From: Escherichia coli O127:H6 str. E2348/69
GTDB lineage: Bacteria > Pseudomonadota > Gammaproteobacteria > Enterobacterales > Enterobacteriaceae
Assembly: GCF_000026545.1 (NCBI RefSeq)
Contig: NC_011601.1
Length of the DNA stretch: 64,000 nt
Direction: 5' to 3' (one strand)
Position numbers: made by a program. Shown here in pieces: positions 54,301 to 57,300 of this stretch. How positions within the stretch are numbered: the first letter of the stretch is position 1; each line of letters starts with the position of its first letter.

Positions 54301-57300
54301 ATGTGACGCGTTTCTTGCGGTTGCCCCATCATGTGGAAAACGCAGGCGTCATCATCCATATTGAAATAGAAATAAACTTCCATCCGGCGCTCGTGGGTGT
54401 GACACGGCATGGTGTTCCACAAGTTACCTGGAGCCAGCTCCGTCAGCCCCATACTCAATTGGCAGGTTTCCAGCACATCCGGGACAAAATATTTGTTAAT
54501 CGTGCGACGGTTACTGGTGAGGTTATCGCCTAACGTGACTGGAGATACTTCGTCCGGTGTGACTTTTTTGGTGGGATACGTCGTATGCGCGGGTGCGCAA
54601 TTGTAATAAAACTTCGCCGGAGTGGCGGTATCAATACTGGCAAAGACAACTTCTTTTGCACCTTTACCAACATACAGGGCGTCGCGGTGACCGATTTCAT
54701 AGCATTGACCACCGACAGTAATCGTACCGGCACCGCCAATATTGATAACACCTAACTCGCGACGTTCAAGGAAATAGCTTACGCCGAGTTGTTTACCAAC
54801 TTCCCCGCCAACGGAAACCGTTTTAGTTACCGGCATAATGCCGCCAACAATAATACGGTCAATGTGGCTGTAAACCATGGTGTACTCATCGGCGACAAAT
54901 ACCTTTTCAACCAAAAATTCATTGCGCAGCCCCTGGGTATCCAGCGTTTTTGCGTGCGCACTGTGGATGCTCTGTCTTACGTCCACATCAACCTCCGATA
55001 ATCAGTGAAGCGTGAAAATAGAAAATAACAATGAAACACTGTTTCGTTTTCTCTATGAGGGGATGATATGCCCATGGGATAGGGTTTTCAATTAAAAATA
55101 AAACAATGTTTCATTTTCAAGTTAAGGATTAAAAAAAGTGCAGTGTCGATCACGAATATGTCATGAGAATGGAAAAATCAGGGAGCCCTGAAAAGGTATG
55201 TCGACTCACCAGCCATCATTATTCAACAGATTAATGACGGCAGATATTTATCGGTAAGGAGGAAATGCAGAGCTACTCGTCACGTTCAATGGTCAATGCC
55301 ACCCCCTGGCCCCCGCCGATACAAAGCGTTGCCAGTCCTTTGCGGGCATTACGTTTCACCATTTCATGAACCAGAGAAACCAGGATTCGGCAACCGGAAG
55401 CGCCTATCGGGTGACCGAGTGCGATCGCACCACCATTAACATTGACCCGACGCTCATCCCATTCAAGCATCTTGCCAACCGAAAGCGCCTGTGCAGCAAA
55501 CGCTTCATTAGCCTCGATAAGATCGACATCAGCCAACTGCCAGCCAACACGCTCCAGGCAACGGCGGGTCGCATACACCGGCGCAATTCCCATCAATGCC
55601 GGATCCACACCAACGCTGGCAAATGCGCGGATGCGGGCCAGCACGGGTAAATTCAACGCTCGTGCTTTGGCTTCGCTCATCATCATTACTGCAGCTGCCC
55701 CATCGTTTATGGATGATGCATTACCCGCTGTCACAGAACCGAGACTATCAAATGAAGGATTTAAACGGGCTAAGCCTTCTGCGCTGGTGTCAGTGCGTGG
55801 CTGTTCATCGGTATCAACAACCAACGTCTGACCGTTACTTTGGGTTATTACCGGGACGATCTCATCTTTAAATCGTCCGGCGTCAATCGCCGCTCGCGCT
55901 TTTTGTTGCGAGCTAAGTGCGTAAGCATCCTGCAACTGACGGCTGATGCCATATTCGCGAGCCAGATTTTCGGCGGTGACACCAATATGATAATCATTGA
56001 AGGCATCCCACAACCCATCATGCACAAGACTATCAACCAACTGGCTATTGCCAAGCTGTGCGCCAGTGCGGCTATCAGTCAGAACATGTGGTGCGCGGCT
56101 CATGTTTTCCTGGCCACCGGCGATGACAATATCAGCCTCGCCACACTGTATCGCCTGAGTAGCCAGATGCAGTGCTTTAAGCCCGGAACCACAAACGTCA
56201 TTAATAGTGATTGCAGAAACGCTATTAGGAAGACCACCTTTAATAGCCGATTGTCTTGCCGGATTCTGCCCTGCCCCTGCAGTCAACACCTGACCAAGAA
56301 TCACTTCATCCACCGCATATGCAGGAACGCCGGTACGTTCTATTAACGCTTTGACGACCAGGCTGCCAAGTTCCACGGCGGAATGACCCGCTAACGCACC
56401 ACGAAAGCAGCCGATAGGTGTCCGTAACGCCCCGACAATCACAACGTCTTTCATCACAACCTCGCACCAATTAACAGTGCAATAGTAAATGATTGTTAAT
56501 TACAGTTATCTTAATTGTTTAAAAAAGGTGATTTTTATCACAAAGGAAATACGCCTGAGTAGCAGTCAGAGACATAACTGGCACGTAAGGTTTGCAACCA
56601 CTAACCCACCAATAGAGAGGTAGATAGGGCGTTAATCTCCCATACTTAACCTGGTTTATGGTAAATTGCCCTCCATTTTGTTTAATTTGTAGATGATACG
56701 TTCAGATAATGTCTAATATTTGGTCAAAAGAAGAAACTCTGTGGAGTTTCGCGCTCTACGGCACAGCCGTTGGTGCAGGCACGCTCTTCCTTCCTATTCA
56801 GTTAGGTTCGGCGGGGGCTGTGGTCCTGTTTATTACTGCTCTGGTCGCCTGGCCTTTAACATATTGGCCACATAAAGCCTTATGCCAGTTCATCCTCTCA
56901 TCGAAAACATCAGCAGGTGAAGGGATAACGGGCGCGGTAACACACTACTATGGCAAGAAGATTGGTAATCTGATTACCACGCTGTACTTCATCGCCTTTT
57001 TTGTCGTCGTGTTGATATATGCAGTGGCAATTACCAACTCACTTACGGAACAGCTGGCAAAGCATATGGTTATTGATCTTCGCATCCGTATGTTGGTGAG
57101 TCTGGGGGTTGTATTAATCCTGAATCTCATTTTTCTGATGGGACGCCATGCAACCATTCGGGTAATGGGATTTTTGGTATTCCCATTGATTGCCTATTTC
57201 TTATTTCTTTCTATTTACCTGGTCGGTAGTTGGCAACCTGATCTATTAACAACCCAGGTAGAGTTCAATCAGAATACCCTTCACCAGATATGGATATCGA

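What the first reader, a model, noticed from the sequence alone, without database searches (positions are those of the whole stretch)
55030..55118. Pair of KdgR-box-like palindromes upstream of kduI
Two sequences built around TGAAACA-N-TGTTTCA lie upstream of kduI, consistent with KdgR repression of the kduI-kduD pair. The nearby IS insertion is 3' of kduD, so this control region appears intact.
Basis: partly seen in the sequence, partly recalled or inferred. Interest (0 to 1): 0.2.

Follow-up and report, generated by a model that had tools for sequence, protein, structure and literature searches.

The report
KdgR operator pair at kduI promoter
Two near-perfect KdgR repressor binding sites bracket the promoter of the E. 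coli kduI-kduD sugar-acid genes; this is real and strongly conserved, but it is the ordinary, already described control region of this operon.

Summary
The window is E. coli E2348/69. kduI (54150-54986) and kduD (53359-54120) lie on the minus strand. Upstream are two 19-bp palindromes, at 55030-55048 and 55097-55115. Each has one mismatch to the published KdgR consensus. They are the only two such matches in 64 kb, against 0.02 expected by chance.

They flank a sigma-70 promoter, TTGAAA-17-TATCAT, which is also listed for K-12 kduI. From the inferred start site, the distal box lies at about -59 to -41 and the proximal box at about +9 to +27.

Across 76 non-Escherichia Enterobacteriaceae kduI loci, both boxes, their 66-69 bp spacing, both promoter hexamers and the ribosome-binding site are conserved, while the sequence between them drifts. 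Weight matrices trained on one box class recover the other class in the window. They also recover the K-12 kdgK and kdgT operators.

kdgR is intact in this strain. Published K-12 data show kduI/kduD derepression without KdgR. The paralogue PlaR (YiaJ) also binds and represses here.

The ISEc13 insertion leaves this 5' control region untouched, but it splits the terminator after kduD. Novelty: already known. Interest: low.

The parts
55097..55115 (-). Distal KdgR box. Minus strand reads AATGAAACATTGTTTTATT, centre 55106, about -59 to -41 from the predicted start site. It abuts the -35 hexamer.
   Evidence: 1 mismatch to the consensus. Top PWM hit in the window. Core has at most 1 mismatch in 75 of 76 non-Escherichia loci. 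Identical in K-12.
55030..55048 (-). Proximal KdgR box. Minus strand reads AACGAAACAGTGTTTCATT, centre 55039, about +9 to +27, in the transcribed leader.
   Evidence: 1 mismatch to the consensus. Second PWM hit in the window. Core has at most 2 mismatches in 66 of 76 non-Escherichia loci. Core identical in K-12, with one flank difference.
55086..55091 (-). -35 hexamer TTGAAA of the kduI promoter.
   Evidence: Promoter scan. Invariant in all 25 aligned sequences. Same hexamers listed for K-12 kduI among RNA polymerase sigma-70 gSELEX 'constitutive promoters' (PMC3946193).
55063..55068 (-). -10 hexamer TATCAT, 17-bp spacer.
   Evidence: The TAnnAT positions are conserved across the aligned sequences. 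Also in PMC3946193.
55056..55056 (-). Predicted transcription start, an A 7 nt after the -10 hexamer. Inferred, not measured.
   Evidence: Inference from the hexamer positions. A conserved CA lies at this position in the alignment.
55139..55154 (-). Conserved CRP-like element cGTGA-N6-CTGCA, centre about -90.5. Candidate class I activator site.
   Evidence: The CGTGATC block is conserved in most of the 25 aligned sequences. Only 6 of 10 consensus positions match in this window. Identity as a CRP site is inferred.
54992..54996 (-). Ribosome-binding site GGAGG of kduI.
   Evidence: present in 24 of the 25 aligned sequences, GAGGC in L006 (Pseudocitrobacter).
54150..54986 (-). kduI, 5-dehydro-4-deoxy-D-glucuronate isomerase, GTG start.
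   Evidence: NCBIfam NF002091, 453 bits against a cut-off of 250. RefSeq annotation.
53359..54120 (-). kduD, 2-dehydro-3-deoxy-D-gluconate 5-dehydrogenase, 29 bp after kduI. Same operon.
   Evidence: NCBIfam NF006528, 553 bits, and TIGR01832. RefSeq annotation.

Best explanation
The two palindromes are the operators of the kduI-kduD operon for the IclR-family repressor KdgR. They bracket an intrinsically active sigma-70 promoter (TTGAAA-17-TATCAT). The distal box sits directly upstream of the -35 hexamer, at about -59 to -41. The proximal box sits in the early transcribed region, at about +9 to +27. Without inducer, KdgR bound at these sites keeps RNA polymerase from binding productively or from clearing the promoter. 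When hexuronates or pectin fragments are metabolised to 2-keto-3-deoxygluconate (KDG), KDG binds KdgR, the repressor leaves the DNA, and kduI-kduD is transcribed. A conserved CRP-like site further upstream probably helps.

Shown here: the sites, their statistical significance, the promoter geometry, the cross-genus conservation, the shared motif at kdgK and kdgT, and an intact kdgR in this strain.

Taken from the literature on K-12 and Dickeya: derepression without KdgR, and KDG as the inducer.

Inferred: the exact start site, the steric mechanism at each box, and that E2348/69 behaves like K-12.
For: Sequence match and rarity are shown. The promoter hexamers lie between the boxes, and the same hexamers are listed for K-12 kduI as an RNA-polymerase-alone promoter (PMC3946193). 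A phylogenetic footprint across 25 sequences spanning more than 15 genera conserves both boxes, the -35, the -10 and the ribosome-binding site, while the spacers vary. In the 76 non-Escherichia loci the distal core has at most 1 mismatch in 75 and the proximal core at most 2 in 66. In those 66 the centre-to-centre spacing is 66-69 bp. The same matrices rank the kdgK and kdgT upstream sites first in their 6-kb K-12 regions. kdgR is intact in E2348/69 and scores 481 bits against the KdgR equivalog cut-off of 275. From the literature: the consensus (PMC5559549); kduD mRNA is up in a K-12 kdgR mutant (PMC6958661); kduI and kduD are overexpressed when kdgR is deleted (PMC6892915); kduI is induced 7- to 54-fold by galacturonate or glucuronate (PMC3578941).
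Against: KdgR binding to these particular E. coli sites was not tested here. None of the papers I could read shows a footprint or gel shift of E. coli KdgR on kduI. The paralogue PlaR/YiaJ binds the kduI region in vitro, and its deletion also raises kduD mRNA (PMC6958661), so occupancy may be shared. The transcription start is predicted, not measured. The 67-bp centre spacing is about 6.4 helical turns. That does not obviously favour cooperative looping, so how the two boxes work together is unknown.
Confidence: 0.9

Rival explanations
1. The boxes are mainly operators for the paralogous IclR-family repressor PlaR (YiaJ), or the two boxes are divided between PlaR and KdgR, rather than both serving KdgR.
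For: In K-12, PlaR gSELEX lists kduI among its targets. All twelve target probes tested by gel shift bound PlaR, but the text does not say whether kduI was among them. kduD mRNA rises in a plaR mutant, and the reported PlaR box (ATnTGAAACnnnGTTCAnTT) is nearly the KdgR box (PMC6958661). yiaJ is intact in E2348/69. YiaJ is 33% identical to KdgR with a similar recognition-helix segment. The proximal box class carries a conserved CG flank (AACGRAAC...GTTTCGTT) where the distal class has TG. The strongest PlaR site, in the yiaK-yiaJ spacer, also has a CGAAAC half-site.
Against: kduD is also derepressed in a kdgR mutant (PMC6958661) and in a strain whose deletion includes kdgR (PMC6892915). The boxes match the KdgR consensus better than they match the best PlaR site. 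The same motif marks kdgK and kdgT, the classical KdgR targets. The flank argument rests on a single PlaR site.
Confidence: 0.12
2. The palindromes act at the RNA level, as a leader hairpin or a yqeF terminator, and not as protein-binding DNA.
For: The proximal box is in the predicted 5' leader and can form a short hairpin. A terminator-like hairpin does exist in the spacer, at 55178-55191.
Against: The leader folds no better than shuffled sequence (z = -0.47; 54 of 200 shuffles fold at least as well). The distal box lies upstream of the promoter, so it is not in the kduI transcript. The yqeF terminator-like hairpin is a different sequence. No Rfam family reaches threshold; there are only sub-threshold plant miRNA hits, caused by the two similar palindromes. 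The same motif sits upstream of kdgK and kdgT.
Confidence: 0.02
3. The palindromes are chance AT-rich sequences, or generic nucleoid-protein (H-NS) binding DNA, with no specific operator role.
For: The spacer is AT-rich. PMC3946193 flags H-NS for the kduI-yqeF spacer.
Against: 0.02 matches were expected and 2 were found. Core, position and spacing are conserved across genera while neighbouring bases drift. Regulation is specific in K-12 mutants (PMC6958661, PMC6892915).
Confidence: 0.01

Closest known systems
KdgR boxes of the KDG/pectin regulon in Enterobacterales (consensus AAATGAAACAnTGTTTCATTT; Rodionov et al. 2000 and 2004, as cited in PMC5559549 and PMC6958661), including the E. coli K-12 kduID promoter
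   Same: Same motif, same gene, same position. The box cores are identical to K-12 MG1655 and the distal box is identical throughout. The same motif lies upstream of K-12 kdgK and kdgT. The repressor gene is present.
   Different: Nothing of substance. The E2348/69 proximal box ends ...TTTCATT where K-12 has ...TTTCACT, one flank base closer to the consensus.
PlaR (YiaJ) box of E. coli K-12 (PMC6958661)
   Same: Same GAAAC-N3-GTTTC-type palindrome bound by a paralogous IclR-family repressor. kduI is a reported PlaR target.
   Different: The strongest PlaR site, in the yiaK-yiaJ spacer, reads GCGAAACTTGATTTCAA and is further from the kduI boxes than the KdgR consensus is. The effectors differ: the paper tests ascorbate and galacturonate on PlaR binding.
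kduI-ogl divergent control regions of other Enterobacteriaceae, for example Enterobacter cloacae
   Same: Same two boxes around the kduI promoter, at the same distances from the start codon.
   Different: Those genomes have a third box serving a divergent oligogalacturonate lyase gene. E. coli has yqeF upstream in the same orientation, no ogl here and no third box.

Membership tests
KdgR operator (KdgR box) | Imperfect palindrome matching AAATGAAACAnTGTTTCATTT | tested here: met
   Each 19-mer has 1 mismatch in 18 specified positions. They are the only 2 hits in 64 kb at up to 3 mismatches, with 0.02 expected.
KdgR operator (KdgR box) | PWM score clearly above background | tested here: met
   Cross-class matrices score the boxes 18.3 and 21.8-22.0 bits. 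The next-best window sites score 7.9 and 14.4-14.9. Simulated-window maxima average 8.1 and 12.5.
KdgR operator (KdgR box) | Lies in the promoter region of a KDG/pectin-pathway gene, at a position compatible with repression | tested here: met
   The boxes flank the -35/-10 of kduI. Gene identities were confirmed. The start site is inferred.
KdgR operator (KdgR box) | Same motif upstream of other regulon members | tested here: met
   It is the top PWM hit in the 6-kb K-12 regions of kdgK (4334-4354 of L082) and kdgT (3551-3571 of L083). Only a weak site was found for eda.
KdgR operator (KdgR box) | Conserved in orthologous promoters of related genomes | tested here: met
   In 76 non-Escherichia loci the distal core has at most 1 mismatch in 75 and the proximal core at most 2 mismatches in 66. 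In those 66 the spacing is 66-69 bp.
KdgR operator (KdgR box) | Cognate repressor encoded in the same genome | tested here: met
   kdgR is intact in E2348/69. NF011671 gives 481 bits against a cut-off of 275.
KdgR operator (KdgR box) | Direct binding by KdgR, released by KDG; derepression in a kdgR mutant | not testable with these tools
   Literature on K-12 only: kduD mRNA is up in a kdgR mutant (PMC6958661), and kduI and kduD are up in a kdgR-deleting strain (PMC6892915). No footprint of E. coli KdgR on kduI was found in the papers I could read.
PlaR (YiaJ) box | Match to the reported PlaR box and binding by PlaR | tested here: inconclusive
   By sequence the reported motif cannot be separated from the KdgR box. 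yiaJ is intact. PlaR gSELEX lists kduI among its K-12 targets; the gel-shift probes are not named in the text read (PMC6958661).
CRP class I site (upstream element 55139-55154) | TGTGA-N6-TCACA with the centre near -61.5, -72.5, -82.5 or -92.5 | tested here: inconclusive
   6 of 10 positions match in this window and up to 8 of 10 in other genera. The left half cGTGATC is strongly conserved. The centre is about -90.5 from a predicted, unmeasured start site.

The most novel reading that the evidence does not exclude
The two boxes may not be redundant KdgR sites. The proximal class keeps a symmetric CG flank (AACGRAAC-N3-GTTTCGTT) across genera, while the distal class keeps TG...TA flanks. Their 66-69 bp spacing is fixed. 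This could reflect a division of labour between the paralogous repressors KdgR and PlaR, one box each, integrating KDG with a second signal. Alternatively it could reflect a fixed-geometry repressor bridge across the core promoter.
Probability: 0.1. Interest if true: 0.3.

Novelty: already known. Interest (0 to 1): 0.08.

Why it matters
It matters little beyond annotation. The result confirms that the kduI-kduD control region of the EPEC strain E2348/69 is intact and essentially identical to that of K-12. The operon should therefore stay repressed by KdgR, and probably also PlaR, and inducible by hexuronate-derived KDG, despite the IS element next door. The cross-genus footprint gives a clean, base-resolved map of this promoter: a CRP-like site, the distal box, the -35, the -10, the proximal box and the ribosome-binding site. 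That map could be used for annotation or reporter design.

Tried and rejected
- **Primary paper:** Rodionov 2004 (10.1099/mic.0.27041-0), which holds the site tables, is not in the library. I took the consensus from papers that cite it.
- **Training set:** only two independent E. coli sites, kdgK and kdgT, could be fetched. I therefore used a cross-class design instead: train on distal boxes and score the proximal box, and the reverse.
- **eda:** the 6-kb K-12 region gave only a weak candidate (TATTGGACCGGTGTTTCAAAA, 9.0 bits). I did not use it.
- **kdgR autoregulation:** the kdgR-yebQ spacer has no match at up to 6 mismatches.
- **RNA-level readings:** rejected. The leader fold has z = -0.47, and Rfam gave only sub-threshold plant miRNA hits.
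- **DNA looping between the boxes:** considered but not adopted. The spacing is about 6.4 helical turns, and there is no oligomerisation evidence for E. coli KdgR in what I could read.
- **More distant kduI promoters:** I did not search Dickeya, Pectobacterium or Yersinia. The single genome-contig scan returned only the 80 closest loci (91% amino-acid identity or more). A further large protein search was not justified for a finding already explained.

Full report
**Where the window comes from and what the genes are.** The 3.6 kb around the finding is 100% identical to the chromosome of E. coli E2348/69, NZ_CP059840.2. RefSeq annotation and NCBIfam models agree on the gene order. On the minus strand:

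| Feature | Window coordinates |
|---|---|
| araE | 50066-51484 |
| ISEc13 (IS4-family) transposase | 51784-53157 |
| kduD | 53359-54120 |
| kduI (GTG start) | 54150-54986 |
| yqeF | 55273-56457 |

yqeG follows on the plus strand. The finding lies in the 286-bp yqeF-kduI spacer, which is upstream of kduI.

**Promoter geometry.** On the minus strand a sigma-70-like promoter lies exactly between the boxes: -35 TTGAAA (55091-55086), a 17-bp spacer, and -10 TATCAT (55068-55063). The same hexamers are printed for K-12 kduI in the list of promoters bound by RNA polymerase sigma-70 holoenzyme alone (PMC3946193). That fits an intrinsically active promoter controlled by repression.

I take the A at 55056 as the start site. 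This is an inference from the -10 position and from a conserved CA at that point. On that basis:
- the distal box spans about -59 to -41 and abuts the -35 hexamer;
- the proximal box spans about +9 to +27.

**Comparison with other kduI promoters.** One scan of species-representative genomes with KduI returned 80 loci at 91% amino-acid identity or more. Of these, 76 are non-Escherichia. Most carry a box at -103 to -126 and another at -49 to -56 from the start codon.

I aligned 25 sequences spanning more than 15 genera and obtained a textbook phylogenetic footprint. The conserved blocks are:
- a CGTGATC...CA block;
- the distal box;
- an invariant TTGAAA;
- TAnnAT;
- the proximal box;
- GGAGGT plus the start codon.

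The 17-bp spacer, the region between the -10 and the proximal box, and the leader all vary freely.

In the 76 non-Escherichia loci, the distal GAAAC-N3-GTTTC core has at most one mismatch in 75. The proximal core has at most two mismatches in 66. In those 66 the centre-to-centre distance is 67 bp (44 loci), 68 (18), 69 (3) or 66 (1).

Within E. coli, the spacer is present in 5414 of 5426 complete genomes. K-12 has the same box cores.

**The PWM test.** To avoid circularity, I trained one matrix only on non-Escherichia distal boxes and one only on non-Escherichia proximal boxes, then scored the other class in the window.

| Matrix trained on | Box scored | Score (bits) | Rank in window | Next-best site (bits) | Mean maximum in 300 simulated windows | Highest simulated maximum |
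|---|---|---|---|---|---|---|
| Distal boxes | Proximal | 18.3 | 2nd | 7.9 | 8.1 (sd 3.6) | 21.3 |
| Proximal boxes | Distal | 21.8-22.0 | 2nd | 14.4-14.9 | 12.5 (sd 2.9) | 25.1 |

The simulated windows were 64-kb first-order Markov sequences. In each scan the first-ranked site was the box of the class the matrix was trained on.

Both matrices also rank the sites upstream of K-12 kdgK (TAATGGAACACTGTTTTAATA) and kdgT (AATTGAAACGCTGTTTTATTT) first in their 6-kb regions. This ties the kduI boxes to the classical KDG regulon.

**Who binds.** The published KdgR consensus is AAATGAAACAnTGTTTCATTT (PMC5559549). kdgR is intact in E2348/69 and passes the NCBIfam KdgR equivalog model, at 481 bits against a cut-off of 275.

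Published K-12 data:
- kduD mRNA rises in a kdgR mutant (PMC6958661).
- kduI and kduD are overexpressed in a strain whose deletion includes kdgR (PMC6892915).
- Galacturonate and glucuronate, which are metabolised to KDG, induce the kduI promoter 7- to 54-fold (PMC3578941).

PMC5559549 states that in Dickeya induction works through KDG acting on KdgR.

The paralogue PlaR (YiaJ) complicates the picture.
- It is 33% identical to KdgR and intact in this strain.
- PlaR gSELEX lists kduI among its K-12 targets, and deleting plaR raises kduD mRNA. All twelve target probes tested by gel shift bound PlaR, but the text does not name kduI among them.
- Its reported box is almost the KdgR box (PMC6958661).

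I cannot separate the two proteins by sequence. The best reading is that these are KdgR operators that PlaR can also occupy.

**Rivals rejected.**
- *RNA-level role.* The predicted leader folds no better than shuffled sequence (z = -0.47). The distal box is not in the kduI transcript. Rfam gives only sub-threshold plant miRNA hits, which arise because the two similar palindromes can pair with each other.
- *Chance.* The statistics and the conservation above exclude it.

**Comparison with what is known.** This is the known KdgR-controlled kduID promoter of E. coli. The only difference from K-12 inside the boxes is one flank base of the proximal box. Novelty: already known.

One reading is slightly less ordinary and is not excluded. 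The two box classes keep different, symmetric flanks across genera, CG for the proximal class and TG for the distal class, at a fixed distance. This could mean a KdgR/PlaR division of labour or a fixed-geometry bridge. I give it about 10%.

**The IS element.** ISEc13 occupies 51773-53322, flanked by the direct repeat GCCATGCGAC.

The uninterrupted K-12 sequence at that point is the intrinsic terminator after kduD, GACCCTGCCGCATGGCAGGGTT followed by TTTTAT. The IS therefore splits the operon's terminator. Its transposase gene points the same way as kduD, so KDG-induced read-through into the IS, and perhaps towards araE, is possible. I did not test this.

**Verdict.** The feature is ordinary and already described, so interest is low.

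Noticed in passing
window 51763-53332: ISEc13 (51773-53322; ends CTGTCTCTTGATCAG... and ...TGTATAAGAGACAG; flanking direct repeat GCCATGCGAC) is inserted inside the intrinsic terminator hairpin that follows kduD in K-12. Its transposase gene is co-oriented with kduD, and the insertion lies about 280 bp upstream of the araE start. kduID read-through into the IS, and possibly towards araE, is plausible but untested.
   Followed up: partly
L086 1669-4214 (E2348/69 chromosome 2081669-2084214): A second ISEc13 copy splits araH, the permease of the high-affinity arabinose ABC transporter. Both arabinose uptake loci in this strain, araFGH and the region upstream of araE, therefore carry an ISEc13 insertion. 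The element has many copies in the genome: the record showed 29 matching places.
   Followed up: no
window 55139-55154 (minus strand): A CRP-like element, cGTGATCGACACTGCA, lies about 90 bp upstream of the predicted kduI start. Its left half, CGTGATC, is conserved in most of the 25 aligned Enterobacteriaceae sequences. It is a probable class I CRP activator site, but only 6 of 10 consensus positions match in this window.
   Followed up: partly
L026 about 1250-1270, and other loci 240-376 bp upstream of kduI: Many other genera have a third KdgR-like box, ATCAAAACAnnGTTTCATT, further upstream. In Enterobacter cloacae it sits about 60 bp upstream of a divergent oligogalacturonate lyase gene (ogl, PF14583). 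In Citrobacter it lies in a longer yqeF-kduI spacer with no obvious gene. E. coli has neither ogl here nor the third box.
   Followed up: partly
window 56709-59185: yqeG is followed directly by a tRNA-Gly gene, actS (ygeR) and xdhA. From memory of the K-12 map, the yqeH-ygeK (ETT2 island) genes that lie here in K-12 are absent in this strain.
   Followed up: no
window 55178-55191 (minus strand): A terminator-like hairpin, TCAGGGCTCCCTGA followed by a T-run, lies about 80 bp after the yqeF stop codon and upstream of the CRP-like site. It would insulate the kduI promoter from yqeF transcription.
   Followed up: no
L002, L060: Contigs labelled 'Deltaproteobacteria bacterium' (a metagenome-assembled genome) and 'Chryseobacterium sp. 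18061' carry kduI that is 99% and 93% identical to the E. coli protein, with Enterobacteriaceae-type promoters. They are probably contaminated or mis-assigned assemblies.
   Followed up: no
window 45730-45750: The third-best PWM hit is TTGCGAAACGCTGTTGCGATT, at 14-15 bits, close to the simulated-window mean maximum of 12.5 bits for the proximal-trained matrix, the only matrix simulated that ranked this site. I did not examine its context. It is probably chance.
   Followed up: no
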